A stretch of DNA of 32,000 nt from Ignavibacteriales bacterium (GTDB taxonomy: Bacteria; Bacteroidota; Ignavibacteria; Ignavibacteriales; Ignavibacteriaceae), in the NCBI GenBank assembly GCA_016700155.1, contig CP065001.1, forward strand, positions 409,788 through 441,787. The letters are read 5' to 3'. The notes beneath the pieces were generated by a model. That model worked only from the letters and a program-made list of their open reading frames with translations, was not told the DNA's origin and did no database searches. Within the stretch, counting starts at the first letter, position 1, and each line of letters begins with the position of its first letter. Of this stretch, positions 12,427 to 27,384 are shown one piece after another. The position numbers and the translations under genes are program-made.

Positions 12427-13449
12427 TCAGCGCACCTTAATTTTTTTCTCTAATGGAATTGCATTTCCCGTCCGAACAAAATCCAAATCATCTATAATTA
12501 TTTTTTTAAAAGTTAACCAATGATAAAACCTGTACGTCTTATCCAAGAAAATCATAACGTTGTTTTCAACTTTAATTAATTTTGAAGATTTTAATTCAAG
12601 GTATGGGAATTGTGATAATATTACTTTTGTAATTTCTAACTTTTCAGTTTTAATACGGGTACTTAGAATATTATAAATAATACTTTTCAAAAACGAATTT
12701 ACCGTATAAGTTTGATCTGAGTTAATACCGATGCCTGAATTATTGTTGAAACATTTTTTCATAAGCATTATTAATAATTCAATGGTACTTATAGAATATG
12801 TAATTTTATCCTTAATTTTGGCAACTATAAGAGATGTACGCTCTTCTGACAATGTAACTTCAACAAATGATCGTTTATTAATAATTGAGTATAAAAATTC
12901 AAATTCTTTTATTTCAGATTTTGTAAATGGTGCAGAATCATCTACTCTGAACTTTTCCAATTCCAATTCGAGTTTCAATTTTTCGTTTTGAATTGGCATC
13001 AACAATGCTTTAGATGCAGTTTCTAAATAACTCAACCATATCTCAGCGACAATTTGGGGAAAAACTACGTTATAATTTTTTTTGTTCCATTCAGGGAGTT
13101 GAAGACTTTGTAAATCCACTCTTAACCTACTTCTCAATGACTTTTCGGAAACATAAGGTAATATGCTAATATTTTTATCATTTAATTCACTTAACAATGC
13201 AACATCCAATTCTCTTTCAACAAACTTTGACTTAATCGAATCCTCAGTCAAATAGACTAATACAGAATCGCACGTAGGTATTCCATCTTCAAATATCGTT
13301 TTCAGGAAAGATTTTCCTGTCCGAATTTCAATTTCATCGCGCCATGGAGTAATCTGACAACGCATCAGATCATCAAACGCTTTCTTTACAAATTCTTTGT
13401 CATTTGAAGAGTATGAAAGGAATACGCGTGGTTTATTAATTCTTTCCAT
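12427..13449 (-). CDS. TIR-domain protein with a coiled coil and an unassigned C-terminal domain of about 190 aa
   Basis: 340 aa. The N-terminus 'PRVFLSYSSNDKEFVKKAFDDL...DSVLVYLTEDSIKSKFVERELDVAL' fits the bacterial TIR pattern (FLSYS start, S.W/F...E helix). It is followed by 'NEKLKLELELEKF'. The start codon overlaps the upstream gene by 14 nt. Confidence 0.75.
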   Translation of the reverse strand: MERINKPRVFLSYSSNDKEFVKKAFDDLMRCQITPWRDEIEIRTGKSFLKTIFEDGIPTCDSVLVYLTEDSIKSKFVERELDVALLSELNDKNISILPYVSEKSLRSRLRVDLQSLQLPEWNKKNYNVVFPQIVAEIWLSYLETASKALLMPIQNEKLKLELELEKFRVDDSAPFTKSEIKEFEFLYSIINKRSFVEVTLSEERTSLIVAKIKDKITYSISTIELLIMLMKKCFNNNSGIGINSDQTYTVNSFLKSIIYNILSTRIKTEKLEITKVILSQFPYLELKSSKLIKVENNVMIFLDKTYRFYHWLTFKKIIIDDLDFVRTGNAIPLEKKIKVR

Positions 13450-14281
13450 AATTTAATACCCGATCCCACTCAGTTGGTTTAAGTGACAAATTTAATTCCT
13501 GGATTAGAATAGAAGATAATCTTATTGAGATTTCAATGCTTTTTTCAATCTTCAATTTTGAAATGAAGAACTCCCGCTTCGTTTTAGATGGTAGGTCTTT
13601 TAAGCTTTTGACATGATAGATAATCAATTGTCTACTTACTTTTCCCACTGAACTATAGAGTTTGGACAATTCCTCAACATTCATTTTATACAAATCTATG
13701 TCATCTTCGGAATTTAATTGTAAGTAAGTAGGATAAATTGGATTATTATATTCATTAATGACTTCATCAAAATATCTTTTTGCATCTGTCCTAAATGAAT
13801 ATGAATAATTTGAACTTAATTTTCTCAATTCATCTAATGATCGCCTACTATCATTCTGAGCAGCAAGTTTGAGGAGTTCCAGATTTGTCAACTCAATTTT
13901 AGGAGTCAATATTGAGTCAATCATCTCTGTAATTCTTTTGTCTCCATATTGCTGAACTTTATATCTTGCCACCTCTTCAATTAATTCTCGAATGTTTTTT
14001 GAGTCAAACTCTTTTTCAATTTGTTGTACAACATTTCTTCTTACAACATCTACATGATAATTCATTGAATCTCTAATATTATCTTCGAATTTTTTAGTTT
14101 TTAATCTAACATCATCCATTGTTTCATTGATATTCGAATAAGTAAAATATCCGCCTATTAAAAAAACTAATGTCACAACAGCAACGACCCCTCCTACCAT
14201 CATTAAGAAACTACTGTGCGCTCGATAAATTGCTTCAACTTCATCAAATGATTTTCTTGATTTATTTTTACTTCGAAACAT
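13436..14281 (-). CDS. single-pass membrane protein of unknown function (N-terminal TM helix, long helical remainder)
   Basis: 281 aa. The TM segment is 'FLMMVGGVVAVVTLVFLIGGYF' after a basic N-terminus. I recognise no domain. It is co-oriented and overlapping with the TIR gene. Confidence 0.6.
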   Translation of the reverse strand: MFRSKNKSRKSFDEVEAIYRAHSSFLMMVGGVVAVVTLVFLIGGYFTYSNINETMDDVRLKTKKFEDNIRDSMNYHVDVVRRNVVQQIEKEFDSKNIRELIEEVARYKVQQYGDKRITEMIDSILTPKIELTNLELLKLAAQNDSRRSLDELRKLSSNYSYSFRTDAKRYFDEVINEYNNPIYPTYLQLNSEDDIDLYKMNVEELSKLYSSVGKVSRQLIIYHVKSLKDLPSKTKREFFISKLKIEKSIEISIRLSSILIQELNLSLKPTEWDRVLNYGKN

Positions 14282-14284
14282 CCC

Positions 14285-14467
14285 TCAAACCTCCAACATA
14301 ATCTGACTCTGTTTCAATTTACCTTTTAACAGCGCTGCTTTAAATGTGATATTTTGCTTCGGTAGATTCAGTTTGAAAGAATGGTCGATAAAAATTAAAT
14401 CAACAGATTCATCAGGAATAATATCCCTGAGCAAGTGAAAGCAGTCACCAAAGTATAGATAATTCAT
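14285..14467 (-). pseudogene. N-terminal remnant of an N6/N4 DNA methyltransferase
   Basis: 60 aa. 'LYFGDCFHLLRDIIPDESVDLIFIDHSF' matches the usual MTase N-terminus 'LY.GDC...L..LPDESVDLI..DPPY', but the DPPY motif has degraded to DHSF and the ORF stops about 30 aa later. Confidence 0.5.
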
Positions 14468-14662
14468 AGAGCCCGCTAATAGTTATTGATACAAACTTAG
14501 GAAAGATATTTATGAAATGTAACTACGATTAAAATAATTTTGATCTTCCCTCTACACTCACAACCTCCTTCAGCCCGATTACGTCCTCACCGCATCCAAA
14601 ACAAGCTCCATCCAAACCCCGCAATAAAAACTACTATCCATTCAACAATACTATAAAATCCT

Positions 14663-14774
14663 AACCTTAGTAACGCTCTAAAATTACAAACAATAAAAAC
14701 CTTATTACCTTATCAAAAAAAACAATAAGCTAATAAGGTAAAAAAATTTACTCACTTAATTAGTTACTAAGGTT
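14663..14774. repeat. nested inverted repeat (long imperfect palindrome)
   Basis: Outer arms AACCTTAGTAAC 14663-14674 and GTTACTAAGGTT 14763-14774 are a perfect 12 bp match. Inner arms 14699-14713 and 14725-14739 match at 14 of 15 positions. Confidence 0.6.
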
Positions 14775-14792
14775 AAAACAAAAAACCGTAGC

Positions 14793-14872
14793 GGCGCAAA
14801 CCCTTGCGCCCCACCCATGCCTCACAAACCACAAATCCCGTTTCTTGCCTGTCACGGCCCAAGCCGTGACAG
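14793..14872. repeat. two REP-like GC hairpins
   Basis: GGCGCAA-ACCC-TTGCGCC at 14793-14810. CTGTCACGGC-CCAA-GCCGTGACAG at 14849-14872. Confidence 0.6.
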
Positions 14873-14993
14873 TCCCTAACACACTACGCCTCTGCCTTAA
14901 AAAAAACACCCACCCCCAATTAACCTCGCAAATTTCCCTCCCCACCCCTCATTTTACGCAAAAAACAAACAAACCCCCACAAAACACCCACAA

Positions 14994-15253
14994 AACTTCT
15001 CAACCTATTAACCAAACTTCTCAACTTATTATCCAACATTCTCAACTTATTATCCAACATTCTCAAATTATTAATCAAACTTCTCAAATTATGACTTAAT
15101 ATGCTCAACTTATGACTCAACATTCTCAACTTATTAACTAACATTCTCGACTTATTAATCAAACTTCTCAACTTATTATTCAACATTCTCGACTTATTAA
15201 CTAACATTCTCAACTTACTATTGCAACTTCTCAAACTATTAATTAACATTGCC
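14994..15253. repeat. tandem array of 12 full 21-bp units plus one partial (consensus about AACATTCTCAACTTATTAACT)
   Basis: Units start at 14994, 15015, 15036, 15057, 15078, 15099, 15120, 15141, 15162, 15183, 15204 and 15225, head to tail with no spacers. The array ends 45 nt before the HTH ATG. Confidence 0.9.
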
Positions 15254-15298
15254 AAAACATTTAGTCAACAATCCAAAAACAACCGGCAGGAGATTTAT

Positions 15299-15703
15299 AT
15301 GCTTACATACAACCTTAACAAACTGTTCGCACAGCGTGCAATCAAAAACAAAATTGCTTTCCTTACAAAGAATGGCTTCGACAAACAAACCGCCGCCCGC
15401 ATAATCAGGAATAAATTTTCAGCCCTCAAACTCACACAAATAGAAAAACTCTGCCTCGCGCTCCACTGCACTCCCAACGACATAATCCAATACACCCCCG
15501 ATCCCCGACGACCAATCCCCAACCACCAATCCCCAACGACCAATCCCCAACCACCAATCCCCAACCACCCCCTTACAAAACTAATCCACCCCGGCATCCC
15601 CGAACAACTCGCAAACATAATAGACGACATCCCCATAGATAAACTCAACGACTTCACACAACAAATAAAAACACTAAAGACACAACTACTCAACAACACA
15701 TAA
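15299..15703 (+). CDS. small XRE/Cro-like helix-turn-helix protein with a proline-rich repeat linker
   Basis: 134 aa from ATG 15299, with AGGAG 6-7 nt upstream. 'LNKLFAQRAIKNKIAFLTKNGFDKQTAARIIRNKFSALKLTQIEKLCLALHCTPNDIIQY' matches the small HTH family common in Bacteroidota-like genomes. I reject the upstream TTG at 15221 because it lies inside the repeat array. Confidence 0.7.
   Translation: MLTYNLNKLFAQRAIKNKIAFLTKNGFDKQTAARIIRNKFSALKLTQIEKLCLALHCTPNDIIQYTPDPRRPIPNHQSPTTNPQPPIPNHPLTKLIHPGIPEQLANIIDDIPIDKLNDFTQQIKTLKTQLLNNT
15509..15569. repeat. 14-bp tandem repeat inside the HTH gene (C[G/C]ACCAATCCCCAA, 4 copies plus a partial)
   Basis: Copies lie at 15509-15522, 15523-15536, 15537-15550 and 15551-15564, with a partial at 15565-15569. 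The period is not a multiple of 3. Confidence 0.85.
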
Positions 15704-16714: not shown

Positions 16715-17089
16715 TTATAACACATATCTTTTAAGACCATCTTTTAGTTTCGTTACGTTGAAATTAATCAATAGTCCAATCTTCTTTTCAGCAAATCTCA
16801 TGTATGTTAATATTTGTGCAGTATGAACTGGCGCGATTAAATCGATTGATTTTAATTCAACTACTACTTTGTTTTCGATCAGTAAATCCAATCTGTAACC
16901 ACATTCAAGTTTAATCTCTTTATAAACTACAGGAACAGCTTTTTGCCTCTCATAAAATAATTTTGATTTATCTAATTCATAACACAAACACTCTTCATAA
17001 GCTGATTCAAGTAATCCCGGTCCAAGACTTTTGTGTACTTCAAGTGCACAGCCAATAATTTTTTGTGTTAATTCATTAAACTCTTCCAA
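16715..17089 (-). CDS. GxxExxY-family protein (PD-(D/E)XK-like fold)
   Basis: 124 aa. 'IIGCALEVHKSLGPGLLESAYEECLCYEL' contains the family signature G..E..Y, and 'RLDLLIENKVVVELKS' is also typical. Confidence 0.85.
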   Translation of the reverse strand: MEEFNELTQKIIGCALEVHKSLGPGLLESAYEECLCYELDKSKLFYERQKAVPVVYKEIKLECGYRLDLLIENKVVVELKSIDLIAPVHTAQILTYMRFAEKKIGLLINFNVTKLKDGLKRYVL

Positions 17090-18417: not shown

Positions 18418-18792
18418 TTATTTGTCGCTTAAATGTTCCTTATCAACTGATTGCAAAAAACGATTTAGCTTTTTACCTAACGTTTCAAGTTTAGAGTGAA
18501 GTTCATCGTACAATACATTATCTGTAAGAGACATGGTTTCGAACAAAGTCTCGAGATGATCAATCGTTTCATCATTAGAAGCTAAAGCCATTGTTATAAA
18601 CCGTATATAATCACTTTTATAATTTCTTCTTCCGTATCCTTCTACAATATTTGACTTCACAGATTTACAGGATCTTCTGATTTGACTTCCTTCTTCATAC
18701 ATTTCAATTTTAGGTAATGCTAAAGTCATTTTATGAATCTCTATAACCAATTCTCTTGCAAGCTGCCATATTTCTAAATTCTTGTAACTCAT
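18418..18792 (-). CDS. four-helix-bundle protein (23S rRNA intervening-sequence / Avd-like family)
   Basis: '[21 protein letters not shown]', '[20 protein letters not shown]' and '[16 protein letters not shown]' are characteristic of this family. Confidence 0.85.
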
Positions 18793-18865
18793 TTTCAATC
18801 ATAAAGAATTGTTAAAATTTATTTCGATTCTCTTGTAGCTAGTATCCAGCAACCTGCATCCAGAC

Positions 18866-23348: not shown

Positions 23349-23483
23349 ATTGGGCTATTGTCAAATCAACTTGCTTCAGGCCGGGAGATATCACTAATCC
23401 CAAGTACTTCAAAAATTAAAACTTGTACCCCGCAGGTGGAATCGCTGATCTTATCTAGTTAAGGAGTTTTGAGTTTACAAAGA

Positions 23484-23672
23484 GTACATTCTGATTCAAG
23501 TTTAGTACATTCCCGTTCACACTGAGCACATTTCCATTCTCGTTTAATACATTTCTATACACATCGAGTACATTCTCATTCACGTTAAGAACATTCCCGT
23601 TCAGATTAAATACATTCCTGTTCACGTTGAGTACATATCTGTTCACATTCAGTACGTATCCATTCACATATC
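23484..23672. repeat. tandem array of 9 full 21-bp units (consensus about GTACATTCCCGTTCACGTTGA) with degenerate flanking units
   Basis: Units start at 23484, 23505, 23526, 23547, 23568, 23589, 23610, 23631 and 23652, head to tail. The array shares the ACATTCYC core and the 21-bp period with the array at 14994-15253. It ends about 40 nt before ATG 23713. Confidence 0.9.
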
Positions 23673-23712: not shown

Positions 23713-23940
23713 ATGGGGGAAAGGGTTGGTGTTAAGTTAAAGTTTAATTTCAAGTCTGTGTTTGCGGCACGCGGGATACAGAGTCCGACCGGGTTTTTGA
23801 GGAAGGCGGGGTTTTCGCCTTTTACTGCTTATTACATATCCGCGGGTAAGGTGGAGGAGGGGAAGAGGTTTATTGAGAAGAAGAGGAAAGAAACAACCTC
23901 ACCCCTTCCCCCTCTCCTTAGTAAGGAGAGGGGTGTGTGA
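23713..23940 (+). pseudogene. truncated paralogue of the 15299..15703 HTH gene
   Basis: 'FKSVFAARGIQSPTGFLRKAGFSPFTAYYISAGK' aligns with 'LNKLFAQRAIKNKIAFLTKNGFDKQTAARIIRNK'. The recognition-helix part (IEKLCLAL..PNDI) is missing. The 3' end is built from a REP-like palindrome, CCCCTCTCCTTA-G-TAAGGAGAGGGG (23909-23933). Confidence 0.45.
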
Positions 23941-24314
23941 TTTTTAAATTTTGGTTGAGTTTTGTTTTTGGTTGGTTTAAGTTGCTATTGAATTTATGTC
24001 GCCCCAGTTACCAAATCAAAAAAAATCCCGGGGCAGGCTTTGCGGCAGTTGTACAGGTTAGGCTTGTATGTGGAAAGCGGATCGGGAGAGAAAATAGTTA
24101 TGAGTTAAGAGTGATGAGTTATGAGTTTGTAGAGGAGAATATTTTTCTCAACTATAAACCAGGACTGAATTATAAAATTATCGCTAAATAATTTTATAAA
24201 AATAGTTTAAGCCTTTGTTGATTTAAGTAAGCGGTTTATAGATCAGAAAATAATTCGTGAATATCAACCGGATTGAGAACCGCCAATTCGGGGATATGTA
24301 TTAGTCCTATTTCT

Positions 24315-24974
24315 ATGAAAAGATATGTAATAAATAAAGAAGATAAGAGTTTCATTAATAGAGAAACCCATTTTGTTGAATTAGGATTATTTGACTTTTG
24401 GTCTCTTTCTATGAAAGCAATTAAAAATAATTTCCCACCATTAATTAAAATTTCCAATATTGATGAAGCATTTAATGTTATAAAAATTTTTATAAAGGAA
24501 TGTGGAAACACTCTTATATTAGACTTACCAGATGGTTATAGTACAAATTATATCACGGGTATTGAAATTGAACAAGATACAATGCGAATTATATGGTATT
24601 CTGCAAATAAAATTTTTGAAGACTCTGACGTTATAAATGATAGCTTTAATGAATTTAGAAAGAGTTATATAGGGGAAAATTTAGAACAGCAATATGGTTT
24701 TACTTTTGATTATTTAATCTTGACACCTGCTTATATTTTGATTTATGCTGAGGAACGAGCTTTCCCAGAAACGATAGATACAAATGAAGAACATTTAGAA
24801 ATATTAACTCACCCTGACTTGAAAATATATGAACACACTTGGGGAAGTTATAAAGTTGAACCCATACTTCAGTATAGAACTCGATATTATTGTAATAAAG
24901 GATTGGTTACAGTATTATATCCCAAAGCTAATCGTGGTAGTTTTAGAGCCGATGAATTTTTTGAGAGCCTTTAG
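24315..24974 (+). CDS. hypothetical protein, no recognisable domain
   Basis: The ORF is 24273..24974. I prefer ATG 24315 (MKRYVINK...). It is AT-rich and its stop lies 2 nt before the next gene's ATG. Confidence 0.55.
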   Translation: MKRYVINKEDKSFINRETHFVELGLFDFWSLSMKAIKNNFPPLIKISNIDEAFNVIKIFIKECGNTLILDLPDGYSTNYITGIEIEQDTMRIIWYSANKIFEDSDVINDSFNEFRKSYIGENLEQQYGFTFDYLILTPAYILIYAEERAFPETIDTNEEHLEILTHPDLKIYEHTWGSYKVEPILQYRTRYYCNKGLVTVLYPKANRGSFRADEFFESL

Positions 24975-24976
24975 AA

Positions 24977-26122
24977 ATGACGATTTCAGACGCATATAAA
25001 GTTCTGGAAATTGATAATCCAGATTATTCTCTATCACAAGTAAAAAATTCATTTAGAAATTTAGCAAAAAAATATCACCCAGATATTTCTGGCAAATCTG
25101 AATATTCAAGATTTATAGATATTTATAATGCTTACAGTTATTTGCTAATAAATCTTCCCAAACAGTATTCTGTTAAAAAAGATGAAACTGCTAAGCAAAA
25201 TATCTTTAACGATTCAACAATTTTTTACGATTTTATTTCTTTTATTGATCGCTTGCATCTTGATTTTATCGTTCTACCACGACGACAATTTGGGAATGTT
25301 CCATCAAATTTTTCAGACATATTTTTTAGTCAAATTGACAACATATTTTCTCAAGATACTTTAGAGTTAATCTCAGAATCAATTTTAACTGGTCATAAGA
25401 AAAGACTTATTGATTTGCTTTCTACTATCTTTGCTGGAACATCACTATTAAAAAGAAATAAATTTTTTAAAAGAATTAAAACCATCGCAAGACAAGAAAG
25501 ATATTTGTCTAATTTAATAAACGCTACAATAGTAGGTATTCCGACCCAAATTTTTACAACTAGCTCAACAAGTATTCCCGATCAGAATACAAATGATTAT
25601 AAAAGTGGTGCAATTAATGTATTATCATTACGCAAAGAATTTTTAGATAGGTTTTTAGATTATTCTCGAAGTAAACCTAACCCAATCTTCTATGAATCAT
25701 CAGTTCCTGAAAAATCTTTTAGAGAAAGTATGCGCGAAGTAAAAAGCGAAGAATCTGCTAAAATTATATTTAAAGAAATTAAGAATAGAATTAGAAGTAG
25801 CTCTGGCAAAGTACAGCTAAATGAAACTCAAATAAAAAATGTAGTTGATTACATTTCCCAGCTAGCCGATTTAGGTGAAAATTTAAAAGGACAATTTGTT
25901 TTTACGTACAGAATTAATGATGATAAAGGACTTGTTAGTGCATTAATTGAACTCTTATTAAAACAAGGTCTTTCATATGAAAGACTATCACTACTCATTA
26001 GGCTATATCAATACTACAAACTTTATCATAAAGATTACAAATTCATTTTTAAAAATCATTCACAAATAAGAGAAGGTCAAATTCTATTGGAATTAAATCA
26101 ACTTATCTCTGATATTGTATGA
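24977..26122 (+). CDS. J-domain (DnaJ-like, HPD motif intact) protein with an unassigned C-terminal region of about 310 aa
   Basis: 'DAYKVLEIDNPDYSLSQVKNSFRNLAKKYHPDISGKSEYSRFIDIYNAYSYL' shows the J-domain helix II, HPD and helix III pattern. I recognise no G/F or zinc-finger region. Confidence 0.75.
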   Translation: MTISDAYKVLEIDNPDYSLSQVKNSFRNLAKKYHPDISGKSEYSRFIDIYNAYSYLLINLPKQYSVKKDETAKQNIFNDSTIFYDFISFIDRLHLDFIVLPRRQFGNVPSNFSDIFFSQIDNIFSQDTLELISESILTGHKKRLIDLLSTIFAGTSLLKRNKFFKRIKTIARQERYLSNLINATIVGIPTQIFTTSSTSIPDQNTNDYKSGAINVLSLRKEFLDRFLDYSRSKPNPIFYESSVPEKSFRESMREVKSEESAKIIFKEIKNRIRSSSGKVQLNETQIKNVVDYISQLADLGENLKGQFVFTYRINDDKGLVSALIELLLKQGLSYERLSLLIRLYQYYKLYHKDYKFIFKNHSQIREGQILLELNQLISDIV

Positions 26123-26336
26123 GGAAGAAATATAACATCTTTAATAAGTAAAGAATCCCGCCAAAGGCGGGTAAACAATACTGTAAAAAGAAAAAAATTA
26201 TCCGGTTCGATACTTTTGAATAGAGTCCTTTAGAAAAATAAACACATTTAATCTTTTAAATAATTATAAACACGGCGTTGTGGTTTAACAACTTGTCCCT
26301 ACTATTCGGGATAACACGACGTTATATGGCTAAAGT

Positions 26337-26753
26337 ATGAAAGAGAAAGATGACATTCAAAAACCTATTTTAGAAGGTAAGTTAAAAGAAGCGCGAATAA
26401 TAACGAATGAGTTTGGTGAACCTAGTATTCCTCCTGAGTACACTTATGAATTAACTGAAGTAGGTAAGGCTGAGATAAAAAAAGCATCAGATATTTTGAA
26501 AAAATATGAGCTATTTATCGAACCAAAACAGTACTTGGAAATAAAAGAAAAGCATAATAAAATAAAATCAAAGTTCTCGCAGACCAAAGAGAGAATCAAT
26601 ATCTCATTTTTTCTTGGCATAACATGGTACTTAGTTGTTTTCTATTCTTCTTTTATAACTGAAAATATATATGTGTCTTTTATTTTTACGACCCTTATAT
26701 TTTTAATTATAATTTACTTATTCGTTTATAAAAATGATTTTGACACTTTTTAG
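26337..26753 (+). CDS. small membrane protein (soluble N-terminus, two C-terminal TM helices)
   Basis: 138 aa. 'ISFFLGITWYLVVFYSSFI' and 'VSFIFTTLIFLIIIYLFVY' are hydrophobic helices. Confidence 0.5.
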   Translation: MKEKDDIQKPILEGKLKEARIITNEFGEPSIPPEYTYELTEVGKAEIKKASDILKKYELFIEPKQYLEIKEKHNKIKSKFSQTKERINISFFLGITWYLVVFYSSFITENIYVSFIFTTLIFLIIIYLFVYKNDFDTF

Positions 26754-26769
26754 TTTTTATGAATAAACA

Positions 26770-27384
26770 ATGCCAAGTAATTTCAATAAAAATAAATTCG
26801 ATTTAATATTTCGTACAAAGAAATTTGAAGTTGAAAATCGACAAAGAAAAGATATGAAGGAATTAGTTGAAAAGTTAGCAAGAGAAAATATCAGAGGTTC
26901 TTTTGCAAATAATGCAACCAATGATTTAACACAAAATCATTTTAAGGAAATATTAAATATCTGGATAGAATCGTTAATTGAATCGTTTGGTAAAAACAGA
27001 ATTTTGGACGAAGATATAAAAGAGGTAAAAGGATTATCTGAAACTTTTAATGAACATTACATTGAAAGAGAGAAAAATGGTTTTCAGACTGCTCTTATAT
27101 CGAAGGGCAATAATTTGGGAAGCTCAATAGTAACAGATAATGTAAAGACATTAGAACATATGCTACATAGGGTTAGGACTAATGCAAATGATTTATTAAC
27201 CTTAGCTATTGATAAGCAAAATGAAAATCTCTCCTATGTCGAGAACATCAATATGATTAGCAAAAGCAACCCGAACAATGAGAATACTAATACTTCAAAC
27301 TTTTGGGAGAAATACGGAAGACAGATTTTTATTGGTGTTATTATTACTGTTATTGGAGGAATAATCTTGGGTCTAATTCTTTAA
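26770..27384 (+). CDS. tail-anchored membrane protein of unknown function
   Basis: 204 aa with a C-terminal TM helix 'QIFIGVIITVIGGIILGLIL'. It starts 16 nt after the preceding ORF. Confidence 0.5.
   Translation: MPSNFNKNKFDLIFRTKKFEVENRQRKDMKELVEKLARENIRGSFANNATNDLTQNHFKEILNIWIESLIESFGKNRILDEDIKEVKGLSETFNEHYIEREKNGFQTALISKGNNLGSSIVTDNVKTLEHMLHRVRTNANDLLTLAIDKQNENLSYVENINMISKSNPNNENTNTSNFWEKYGRQIFIGVIITVIGGIILGLIL

What the first reader, a model, noticed from the sequence alone, without database searches (positions are those of the whole stretch)
14994..15703. Recurrent module: 21-bp tandem array immediately upstream of a small XRE-like HTH gene, found beside both accessory islands
Seen in sequence:
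- Twelve head-to-tail 21-bp units (14994-15245, plus a partial unit) end 45 nt before the HTH gene at 15299.
- A second array of at least 9 units (23484-23672) ends about 40 nt before a truncated paralogue at 23713.
- The two arrays share the 21-bp period and an ACATTCYC core, but otherwise differ.
- One module borders the TIR island and the other borders the J-domain island.

Established knowledge: 21 bp is two helical turns, so all copies face the same side of the DNA. Arrays of 19-22 bp repeats are the classic layout of iterons, or operators bound cooperatively by a neighbouring DNA-binding protein.

Inference: the HTH protein may bind its own upstream array, for autoregulation, nucleoprotein filament formation or silencing. 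The module may also mark or organise hotspots where accessory cargo accumulates. I cannot name a described element with this architecture.
Basis: partly seen in the sequence, partly recalled or inferred. Interest (0 to 1): 0.65.

Follow-up and report, generated by a model that had tools for sequence, protein, structure and literature searches.

The report
Small DNA-binding gene with its own repeat array
A small helix-turn-helix gene preceded by about ten head-to-tail 21-bp repeats is a self-contained module found in bacteria of three phyla; the protein most likely coats its own repeats, and I found no published description of it.

Summary
Array 1 has 12 units of 21 bp and ends 48 nt before a 134-aa HTH_26 (XRE-type) gene. 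Array 2 has 9 units and ends 42 nt before a paralogue. That paralogue is degraded: its start codon is lost and about 60 codons are deleted in frame.

The pairing is a conserved module. All nine close homologues carry a 21-bp array upstream. So do about 71 of 79 assessable loci from Bacteroidota, Ignavibacteria and Acidobacteriota. In 827 kb of flanking DNA, 41 of 46 tandem arrays lie just upstream of the HTH gene.

Units are asymmetric and non-coding, and they show no RNA structure. Their sequence follows the hypervariable recognition helix. Copy number varies between strains in whole units. No neighbouring gene is conserved, and no Rep, Par, phage or plasmid link was found.

Best reading: the protein binds its own phased, polar operator array cooperatively and autoregulates. 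Its wider role is unknown. The "cargo hotspot" idea gets only weak support, because the flanks are mostly housekeeping genes. I found no published description. I rate it a new variant of a known kind.

The parts
14994..15250 (+). Array 1: 12 head-to-tail, asymmetric 21-bp units (core TTCTCAACTTATTA, variable 3' part). This is the proposed operator array of the adjacent HTH protein.
   Evidence: TRF gives period 21, 12.1 copies, score 261. Units were read in register. The core occurs 15 times against 0.8 expected. There is no dyad symmetry, no codon-phase signal and no RNA structure, z +1.4.
15243..15298 (+). Degenerate proximal units carrying the putative HTH promoter and ribosome-binding site: -35-like TTAACA at 15243-15248, -10-like AACAAT at 15267-15272, AGGAG at 15288-15292.
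   Evidence: Consensus promoter scan. The 21-bp register persists in degenerate form to about 15290 (family D1). The block AACCGGCAGG(A/T)GA before the ATG is conserved with L001. The promoter is a consensus match only, not a demonstrated promoter.
15299..15703 (+). Gene for the 134-aa HTH_26/XRE-type protein. It has an N-terminal five-helix HTH (residues 1-65), a disordered Pro-rich linker and C-terminal helices (103-132, coiled-coil-like).
   Evidence: Pfam HTH_26, E 1e-9. AlphaFold model: pLDDT 80-90 for residues 1-65, low in the linker. Foldseek matches the HTH only (SaPI2 Stl, VanUg, CylR2). The family has 544 clusters at E<=1e-3, nearly all 110-125 aa.
15501..15569 (+). A 14-bp tandem repeat (4.9 copies) inside the gene. 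It encodes a 14-aa Pro-rich insertion in the linker that all homologues lack.
   Evidence: TRF. Protein alignments A1 and A3 show the insertion only in the window protein.
23482..23670 (+). Array 2: 9 units of 21 bp (core GAGTACATTYCCRTT). It is orthologous to the arrays in front of the intact genes in L091 and L092.
   Evidence: TRF. Units read in register. Alignment unit by unit with L091. L092 has at least 14 homogeneous units with the same core and shares the upstream terminator.
23713..23940 (+). Degraded paralogue (75-aa ORF). The ancestral start codon is mutated (ATG to AAG). An in-frame deletion of about 60 codons removed HTH helices 4-5, the linker and part of the C-terminus.
   Evidence: The family HMM matches only profile positions 2-41, E 6.7e-9. 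Compared with P0161-P0164 and with L091 DNA. No remnant of the missing part is found in any frame.
14662..14810 (.). Conserved structured non-coding element upstream of array 1. It consists of a nested inverted repeat (13-nt perfect outer arms, 15-nt inner arms) and a GC hairpin GGCGCAAACCCTTGCGCC. It is part of the block shared with the closest relative. Its role is unknown.
   Evidence: Fold z-scores -7.2 (+ strand) and -6.0 (- strand). Inverted repeats I7 and I12. A block of identical bases around the GC hairpin and the same nested arms are present in L001, L003 and L004.

Best explanation
The finding is one intact copy and one decayed copy of a self-contained two-part module. Each module is a monocistronic gene for a small HTH_26 (XRE-type) protein plus, directly upstream of its promoter, about ten phased, polar 20/21-bp operator units.

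**Proposed mechanism (inferred).** The protein recognises one asymmetric unit per HTH. Units repeat every two helical turns, so all bound proteins lie on one face of the DNA. They contact each other through the C-terminal helices that follow the flexible linker. This gives a cooperative head-to-tail nucleoprotein complex 200-270 bp long. The promoter-proximal, degenerate units overlap the -35/-10 region, so high occupancy would most likely repress the protein's own gene (negative autoregulation with a sharp threshold).

**Evolution.** Recognition helix and unit sequence change together, which creates many specificities. Arrays expand and contract in whole units. An orphaned array, such as array 2 here, could still be served in trans by paralogues of the same specificity in the same genome.

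**Shown here:** the architecture, its conservation, the co-variation, the polarity of the units, their non-coding and non-RNA nature, and copy-number polymorphism.

**Inferred:** binding, cooperativity, the sign of regulation, and any role beyond autoregulation.
For: **Pairing.**
- Every close homologue (31-75% identity) has a 21-bp array of 7-11 units ending 33-63 nt before its start codon. The unit sequence is specific to each lineage.
- Among 80 loci from Bacteroidota, Ignavibacteria and Acidobacteriota, 49 have a 20/21-bp (once 41-bp) array by TRF. About 22 more have lag 21/42/63 as their strongest autocorrelation.

**Specificity control.** In 827 kb of these loci, 41 of 46 tandem arrays (at least 4 copies) lie within 600 bp upstream of the HTH start. 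Their periods are 21 (36 arrays), 20 (4) and 41 (1).

**Co-variation.**
- The recognition-helix region (residues 27-41) is the most variable part of the HTH (entropy 2.55 against 1.6-1.9).
- It is about 20% identical where the rest of the protein is 30-50% identical.
- Unit similarity in the forward orientation follows recognition-helix identity after controlling for the rest of the protein (partial r 0.26, p about 0.001). The reverse-complement control is flat.
- The W2/L091/L092 subfamily keeps both the helix SPxTASYIATGK and the core GAGTACATTTCCGTT.

**Nature of the units.**
- Units lack dyad symmetry (mean z 0.05).
- They are not coding: 10 of 25 arrays have no open frame, and variability shows no codon phase.
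- They show no RNA structure.

**Position.** The array abuts or overlaps promoter-like elements.

**Autonomy.** No conserved neighbouring gene exists, and the downstream gene is co-directional in 38 loci and convergent in 33. The unit is therefore self-contained.

**Dynamics.** An 84-bp deletion of exactly 4 units separates strains with otherwise identical flanks.
Against: - No binding data exist, and I could not model a protein-DNA complex.
- The co-variation is modest and partly confounded by shared ancestry.
- Four 21-bp arrays in the sampled loci, and array 2 in the window, have no intact HTH next to them. Arrays can therefore persist without a cis-encoded partner.
- XRE proteins classically bind palindromes as dimers. 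Polar direct repeats are unusual for this fold.
- A module that only regulates itself has no obvious selective value, so an output is missing from this explanation.
- The promoter assignment rests on weak consensus matches.
- The extreme strand asymmetry of some modules is unexplained.
Confidence: 0.6

Rival explanations
1. Architectural or centromere-like landmark. The protein does coat the array, but the purpose is structural: a chromosomal anchor, a boundary or insulator, a roadblock, or a handle for an unlinked motor. This would resemble ParR-parC, TubR-tubC or omega-heptad complexes. Autoregulation would be a side effect.
For: About ten phased 20/21-bp direct repeats directly upstream of a small DNA-binding gene is the layout of type II and type III plasmid centromeres (established knowledge). 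Such long arrays are far more than simple autoregulation needs. Some genomes hold several arrays of the same specificity at different loci (P0161, P0163 and the window copy; L077 and L080). Modules are stably inherited in core-genome contexts.
Against: No ParM, ParA or TubZ-like gene, nor any other conserved partner, lies within 6 kb in 84 loci. The protein has an XRE HTH, not an RHH or winged helix. Nothing here addresses localisation or chromosome structure.
Confidence: 0.15
2. The array is a variable-number promoter element, or intrinsically shaped DNA, that sets the expression level of the HTH gene through copy number. The HTH would not recognise it sequence-specifically.
For: Copy number differs between strains in whole units (7 against 11) and between relatives (9 to at least 14). 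In two related loci (L048, L050), orphan arrays next to orthologous 968-aa genes share the 21-bp period but not the sequence. The period is held at two helical turns.
Against: Units are strongly homogenised within an array, yet their cores are conserved between orthologous arrays whose recognition helices are the same. Tandem arrays are almost exclusive to this one gene family in the sampled DNA. That is hard to explain without a specific interaction.
Confidence: 0.1
3. Hotspot organiser. The module marks or promotes sites where accessory or defence cargo integrates.
For: The window has a TIR operon beside module 1 and a low-GC J-domain block beside module 2. L009 has two reverse transcriptases, NUDIX/2-5 ligase and Cap15 on the array side. 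PADLOC families matched number 63 among 132 array-side neighbours and 15 among 123 on the other side.
Against: Most neighbours on both sides are housekeeping genes, for example tRNA synthetases, Dus, OTCase, MutS and peptidases. Synteny is conserved within genera (L033/L035, L013/L014, L072/L073). The two islands in the window lie on opposite sides of their modules. No recombinase is associated.
Confidence: 0.07
4. The array is transcribed and acts as RNA, either as a leader or as a protein sponge controlling the downstream XRE gene. This would resemble the Bartonella Brt RNA/Trp modules.
For: A published precedent exists for a multi-copy module of a non-coding element plus a small XRE gene (PMC5387305). 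In the window the whole stretch 14760-15703 shares one extreme strand composition, as a single transcript might.
Against: The arrays fold no better than shuffled sequence (z +1.4 and +0.6). No terminator lies between array and gene. There is no Rfam match. A strict 20/21-nt period over three phyla fits DNA helical phasing rather than RNA. The strand asymmetry is present in only 15 of 86 modules and occurs in both directions.
Confidence: 0.05
5. Iterons of a replication origin, or a remnant of an integrated plasmid or phage.
For: The unit length and copy number are iteron-like (established knowledge).
Against: No Rep initiator, no conserved neighbour at all. No relatives were found in IMG/VR, phage or plasmid collections beyond generic HTH similarity. 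The flanks are core chromosomal genes.
Confidence: 0.03

Closest known systems
Plasmid centromere and adaptor pairs: R1 and pSK41 parC-ParR, pBtoxis tubC-TubR, pSM19035 omega with 7-bp heptads (from my own knowledge)
   Same: About 4-12 phased direct repeats (10-20 bp) lie directly upstream of the gene for a small DNA-binding protein. The protein binds them cooperatively, forms a superstructure on one DNA face and autoregulates. Specificities differ between systems.
   Different: Those systems sit on plasmids, use RHH or winged-helix adaptors, and always have a partner NTPase (ParM, ParA or TubZ) in the operon. Here the protein has an XRE HTH, the gene is monocistronic and chromosomal, and no partner is conserved.
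Classical XRE/Cro-CI repressors and restriction-modification controller (C) proteins
   Same: The same DNA-binding fold (Pfam HTH_26; Foldseek matches to Stl, CylR2, VanUg and C.Esp1396I). The operators lie at the protein's own promoter, and autoregulation is expected.
   Different: Classical operators are 2-3 palindromes bound by dimers. Here there are 7-13 contiguous asymmetric units at a fixed 20/21-bp period.
Repressors with asymmetric, repeated operators: Bacillus phage phi105 repressor and mycobacteriophage L5 gp71 'stoperators' (from my own knowledge)
   Same: An HTH repressor recognises a non-palindromic site that is present in many copies in one orientation.
   Different: Those sites are dispersed along a phage genome rather than forming a head-to-tail array. 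The systems are phage-borne, and no phage relatives were found here.
Iteron-Rep replication control of plasmids
   Same: Unit length of 17-22 bp, several direct copies, and a titration or handcuffing logic.
   Different: There is no Rep protein, no replicon, and no DnaA-box or AT-rich unwinding-element context was identified. The array is far longer than typical iteron sets.
Bartonella Brt RNA / Trp (XRE) modules (PMC5387305)
   Same: A multi-copy genomic module made of a conserved non-coding element immediately upstream of a small XRE-family gene.
   Different: Brt is a structured, roughly 200-nt, highly expressed RNA, not a tandem DNA array. The window arrays have no RNA structure.

Membership tests
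XRE / Cro-C1 type HTH transcription factors (Pfam HTH_26, PF13443) | Five-helix Cro/C1-type HTH domain | tested here: met
   HTH_26 at E 1e-9, 39 bits against a cut-off of 22, residues 5-68. The AlphaFold model has five helices at pLDDT 80-90. Foldseek top matches are XRE HTH domains.
XRE / Cro-C1 type HTH transcription factors (Pfam HTH_26, PF13443) | Palindromic operator bound by a symmetric dimer | tested here: not met
   Units show no dyad symmetry. The self reverse-complement score equals the shuffled null (mean z 0.05 over 35 arrays).
Plasmid partition centromere plus adaptor (type Ib/II/III par) | Tandem direct repeats immediately upstream of the adaptor's operon | tested here: met
   12 x 21 bp end 48 nt before the gene. 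The same layout is found in about 71 of 79 assessable homologous loci.
Plasmid partition centromere plus adaptor (type Ib/II/III par) | Cognate NTPase (ParA, ParM or TubZ) encoded with the adaptor | tested here: not met
   ORF clustering over 84 loci finds no conserved neighbour. Pfam survey of 255 flanking proteins shows none of these among the most frequent families. In the window the downstream gene is an EamA transporter.
Plasmid partition centromere plus adaptor (type Ib/II/III par) | Located on a plasmid or other extrachromosomal replicon | tested here: not met
   The source contig is 4.6 Mb. The flanks carry enolase, glutamine synthetase and aminotransferase genes. Plasmid hits show only weak HTH-level similarity.
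Iteron-regulated replicon | Rep initiator gene adjacent to the iterons | tested here: not met
   The only conserved gene is the HTH, about 119 aa.
Iteron-regulated replicon | Origin activity of the repeat region | not testable with these tools
   This requires replication assays.
CRISPR array | Repeats separated by unique spacers of similar length | tested here: not met
   Units are contiguous at a 21-bp spacing with no spacers.
Repeat-protein coding sequence | An open frame across the repeats, with variability concentrated in one codon phase | tested here: not met
   10 of 25 arrays have no open frame in any of six frames. The largest share of variability in one codon phase is 0.43, against 0.45 for the null.
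Structured cis-regulatory or small RNA (e.g. Brt-like leader) | Stable conserved secondary structure, or a match to a described RNA family | tested here: not met
   Fold z-scores are +1.4 and +0.6 for the two arrays. There are no Rfam matches in the window or in 12 loci.

The most novel reading that the evidence does not exclude
These modules are natural 'operator-array tags': autonomous chromosomal loci where a dedicated small HTH protein polymerises head-to-tail on about ten phased sites. Dozens of specificities would have diversified together in Bacteroidota, Ignavibacteriota and Acidobacteriota. Their real function would be architectural, for example insulating or silencing neighbouring DNA (including newly acquired islands), anchoring loci, or acting as motor-independent centromere-like landmarks. 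That would make them a previously unrecognised class of sequence-specific nucleoid-organising element in phyla where no H-NS-like system is known.
Probability: 0.15. Interest if true: 0.85.

Novelty: new variant of a known kind. Interest (0 to 1): 0.64.

Why it matters
If the inference holds, this is a large family: 544 clusters at 50% identity match at E<=1e-3, several paralogues occur per genome, and three phyla are involved. I found no published description and no NCBIfam model for it.

In this family a transcription-factor fold normally used on palindromes has been adapted to polymerise on long, polar, helically phased arrays.

- It offers a natural experiment in co-evolution of protein and DNA specificity, with many helix-unit pairs to read a recognition code from.
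- It gives a testable entry point to nucleoid organisation or threshold-type regulation in poorly studied phyla.
- It may provide a toolbox of orthogonal operator-array and binder pairs, as natural counterparts of lacO/tetO arrays.
- It explains why these loci break metagenome assemblies and produce spurious ORFs and start codons, such as the 160-aa TTG-start ORF (15221-15703) and the 111-aa ORF (14920-15255) across array 1.

Tried and rejected
- **Coding repeats:** rejected.
- **Known RNA families:** rejected. No Rfam match in the window or in 12 loci, no tRNA or tmRNA, and no structure in the arrays.
- **Conserved partner gene:** rejected. All-vs-all ORF clustering found only a 214-226-aa helical protein recurring in 9 loci. 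It has no Pfam or NCBIfam match above threshold.
- **Plasmid, phage or virus origin:** rejected. The IMG/VR scan found none, there are no phage matches, and plasmid matches are at HTH level only.
- **Further copies of either unit elsewhere in the window:** none beyond chance.
- **Solved structures:** only the generic HTH of SaPI2 Stl matches.
- **Retrieving the source genome around the other paralogues (P0161, P0163) or the window protein:** not on record.
- **Two-specificity composite arrays in Cyclobacteriaceae:** on inspection these are sub-variants of one TTG-N-ACA unit held in one register.
- **Shared family-wide unit core:** only weak signals. CAT occurs in 21 of 34 arrays in the forward orientation against 8 in reverse, and TGTA is enriched.
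- **First attempt at a genome scan with the 59-sequence alignment:** it failed because no conserved stretch was available.
- **Literature searches:** five searches found no description of the module.
Full report
**1. Observation**

Tandem Repeats Finder reports a 21-bp array at 14997-15250 (12.1 copies, 78% matches, score 261). A second array lies at 23482-23669 (9.0 copies, 67-68% matches). Read in register, array 1 is 12 units of A(AC/CA)TTCTCAACTTATTAnnnA. Array 2 is 9 units of GAGTACATTCYCRTTCACRTT.

The 14-nt core of array 1 occurs 15 times in the window at up to 2 mismatches, against 0.8 expected. Twelve of these are in the array. Array 2 is likewise far above chance.

Array 1 ends 48 nt before the ATG at 15299. 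The 134-aa product matches Pfam HTH_26 (Cro/C1-type HTH) at E 1e-9. Array 2 ends 42 nt before the ORF 23713-23940.

**2. The second gene is a decayed copy**

The 75-aa ORF matches the family profile only over profile positions 2-41. A protein search recovered intact relatives:
- P0161 (131 aa) and P0163 (118 aa), from the same 4.6-Mb contig, named by the source as "MAG: Ignavibacteriales bacterium".
- P0162 and P0164, from other samples.

P0161 reads ...GKVEKLNLK...LTLGKVEEVKRFIEEKRKETTSPPPPLLGKERGE. The window ORF reads ...GKVEEGKRFIEKKRKETTSPLPPLLSKERGV. This shows an in-frame deletion of about 60 codons between two GKVE-coding repeats.

The DNA alignment with L091 shows that the ancestral ATG is AAG in the window. 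L091 and L092 carry arrays homologous to array 2 in front of intact genes. L092 also shares the upstream terminator and the end of a T9SS-type gene, so it is the orthologous position.

**3. The pairing is a conserved module**

All close homologues found (P0002-P0009, 31-75% identity, 116-120 aa) were located on contigs. Each has a 21-bp array of 7-11 units ending 33-63 nt before the start codon, with a unit sequence specific to its lineage.

An exhaustive profile-free search gave 544 clusters at E<=1e-3, nearly all 110-125 aa and matching full-length.

A scan of one genome per species gave 129 confirmed loci from a single peptide pattern. Eighty were fetched. They come from:
- Bacteroidota: Cyclobacteriaceae, Chitinophagales, Flavobacteriaceae, Paludibacter, Sunxiuqinia, Reichenbachiella, Aquimarina.
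- Ignavibacteria.
- Acidobacteriota: Pyrinomonadaceae, Blastocatellaceae, Chloracidobacterium.

Results on these 80 loci:
- 49 have a 20/21-bp (once 41-bp) array by TRF within 500 bp upstream.
- In about 22 of the remaining 30 assessable loci, lag 21, 42 or 63 is the strongest autocorrelation.
- The loci without any signal are mainly the weakest, partial homologues.

As a background control, I counted tandem arrays (at least 4 copies, at least 80 bp) in the 827 kb of these loci. There are 46 in all. Forty-one lie within 600 bp upstream of the HTH start, with periods 21 (36), 20 (4) and 41 (1). Several genomes carry 2-4 modules.

**4. What the array is not**

- **Not coding.** Ten of 25 arrays are closed in all six frames, and unit variability has no codon phase.
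- **Not a structured RNA.** The two window arrays fold no better than shuffles (z +1.4 and +0.6). Rfam finds nothing in the window or in 12 loci. No tRNA or tmRNA is present.
- **Not CRISPR-like.** There are no spacers.
- **Not plasmid, phage or virus-borne.** IMG/VR gave no relatives, phages none, and plasmids only HTH-level hits.
- **No conserved partner gene.** Clustering of all ORFs of 84 loci gives the HTH in 78 loci and the next family in only 10. The downstream gene is co-directional in 38 loci and convergent in 33. The unit is therefore a monocistronic gene plus its upstream array.

**5. Evidence that protein and array interact**

- The predicted structure has a confident five-helix HTH (residues 1-65), a disordered linker, and C-terminal helices at 103-132 with a 3-4 hydrophobic spacing.
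- Within the HTH, the turn and recognition-helix segment (residues 27-41) is the most variable part. Its entropy is 2.55, against 1.9 and 1.6 for the flanking segments.
- Across 528 pairs of loci, this segment is about 20% identical where the rest of the protein is 30-50% identical.
- Unit similarity rises only when the helix is conserved. The partial correlation after removing the rest-of-protein identity is 0.26 (permutation p about 0.001). It holds only for the forward orientation, and the reverse-complement control is flat.
- The W2/L091/L092 subfamily keeps SPxTASYIATGK and the core GAGTACATTTCCGTT, while the 3' six or seven bases of the unit drift.
- Units have no dyad symmetry. Recognition must therefore be polar, unlike classical XRE dimers on palindromes.
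- The period is held at 21 bp (rarely 20) in three phyla. That is two helical turns, so every bound protein would lie on one face of the DNA.

**6. Position and dynamics**

- In the window, a -35-like TTAACA (15243-15248) and a -10-like AACAAT (15267-15272) lie in the degenerate proximal units. AGGAG lies 6 nt before the ATG.
- In Bacteroidota loci, a TAnnTTTG -7 box lies between array and start codon.
- The array therefore abuts or overlaps the core promoter. This fits autoregulation, most simply repression at high occupancy. These are consensus matches only.
- Arrays are dynamic. L007 differs from L005 and L008 (identical protein, identical flanks) by a clean 84-bp, 4-unit deletion.
- Orthologous arrays have 9, about 10 and at least 14 units.

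**7. The hotspot idea**

The window shows a TIR operon (60-aa, 281-aa and 340-aa TIR_2 proteins, GC 0.30) on the array side of module 1. A low-GC J-domain block lies downstream of module 2. L009 has reverse transcriptases, NUDIX/2-5 ligase and Cap15 on the array side.

Over about 70 loci, however, the two nearest genes on either side are mostly housekeeping. Synteny is conserved within genera.

PADLOC families matched are more numerous on the array side (63 against 15). They include ThsA, LmuA, type IIG RM and PifA, but only in a minority of loci. I regard this as a weak tendency, not a property of the module.

**8. Loose ends**

- Four 21-bp arrays in the sampled loci have no family HTH next to them (L034, L048, L050). 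Together with the window's decayed copy, this shows that arrays can outlive or be separated from the gene.
- Paralogues with near-identical recognition helices in one genome could serve such arrays in trans.
- A subset of modules (15 of 86), including the window copy, has extreme local strand asymmetry over gene and upstream region. GC skew reaches -0.59 to -0.73, in either direction, while the flanks are near zero. I have no explanation.
- In the window lineage, a structured inverted-repeat element and a GC hairpin upstream of the array are conserved with L001.

**9. Comparison with known systems**

The closest functional analogues are plasmid centromere-adaptor pairs: parC-ParR, tubC-TubR and omega with heptads. 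They share the array geometry, its position upstream of the binder's gene, and cooperative coating. The module fails membership on three counts:
- No NTPase partner.
- No replicon.
- A different fold.

It belongs to the XRE/HTH_26 fold family but fails the palindromic-operator feature. Iteron-Rep, CRISPR, repeat-protein and leader-RNA readings fail defining features (see the membership table). The Bartonella Brt/Trp modules (PMC5387305) are the nearest published case of a repeated non-coding element plus a small XRE gene, but they act through RNA. Five literature searches and NCBIfam gave no description of this module.

**10. Verdict**

The feature is real, non-random and widely conserved. The most likely mechanism is cooperative, polar binding of the HTH protein to its own phased operator array, with autoregulation (confidence about 0.6). 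The physiological output is unknown. The architectural or centromere-like reading is the most interesting one not excluded. Novelty: new variant of a known kind. Interest: 0.64.

Noticed in passing
window 14760-15703: There is extreme local strand asymmetry. The + strand is A+C-rich (gene: A .39, C .37, T .16, G .09). GC skew is -0.59 in the gene and -0.73 upstream, while the flanks are near 0. Fifteen of 86 modules in other genomes show |skew| > 0.3, in either direction. This is unexplained.
   Followed up: partly
window 15501-15569: A 14-bp tandem repeat (4.9 copies) inside the HTH gene encodes a 14-aa Pro-rich insertion in the inter-domain linker. All homologues lack it. A repeat expansion has been tolerated in frame.
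   Followed up: partly
window 14662-14810 (and L001 3277-3519): A nested inverted repeat (13-nt perfect outer arms, 15-nt inner arms; fold z -7.2 and -6.0) is followed by the hairpin GGCGCAAACCCTTGCGCC. Both are conserved in the closest relative, although the surrounding non-coding DNA has diverged. It could be an RNA, a cruciform or an attachment-type site.
   Followed up: partly
window 12427-14467 (minus strand): A low-GC (0.30) three-gene operon encodes a 60-aa HTH-like protein, a 281-aa protein with no family, and a 340-aa TIR_2 protein. The last two genes overlap by 14 nt. PADLOC gives only TIR-level matches (ThsB, SAVED-TIR, PDC-S66). This is possibly an undescribed TIR defence system.
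   Followed up: partly
window 24273-27384: A low-GC (0.27-0.31) block has four ORFs (233, 381, 138 and 204 aa). Only the 381-aa protein has a domain, an N-terminal DnaJ/J domain. There are no PADLOC or NCBIfam matches.
   Followed up: partly
window 14852-14875; L091 about 720-900; L005 2835-4700: REP-like palindromes occur next to modules. The window has CTGTCACGG-CCAA-GCCGTGACAG. L091 has repeated GACTGTCACGGAATGG...GGGACAG copies. L005 has about 2 kb of GTCCCGATCTATCGGGA-type hairpins upstream of its array.
   Followed up: no
L034 11022-11406; L048 1174-1325; L050 1523-1667: These are orphan 21-bp arrays (7-18 units) with no family HTH nearby. L048 and L050 are related loci, and their orphan arrays, next to orthologous 968-aa genes, share the period but not the unit sequence. 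In L048 the array lies about 100 bp upstream of a 220-aa helical protein.
   Followed up: partly
L005 2107-2835, L009 6487-7131, L039, L043, L044, L048, L066, L085, L089: A family of helical proteins, mostly 214-242 aa (310 and 341 aa in L066 and L085), recurs within 6 kb of the HTH in 9 loci; it has no Pfam or NCBIfam match above threshold. In L066 and L085 it is divergent from the HTH and shares the array region. It may be an occasional partner.
   Followed up: partly
window 16715-17089 and 18418-18798 (minus strand): Small PDDEXK_3 (124 aa) and 23S-rRNA-intervening-sequence-family (126 aa) genes are interspersed among housekeeping genes.
   Followed up: no
window 23895-23925 and 24096-24127: The hairpin CCCCTCTCCTTAGTAAGGAGAGGGG forms the 3' end of the truncated ORF and also the tail of intact P0161. 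A 7-bp repeat, AGTTATG x 4.6, lies downstream. A related GAGTTAGTTATGAGTT motif follows the intact gene in L091.
   Followed up: no
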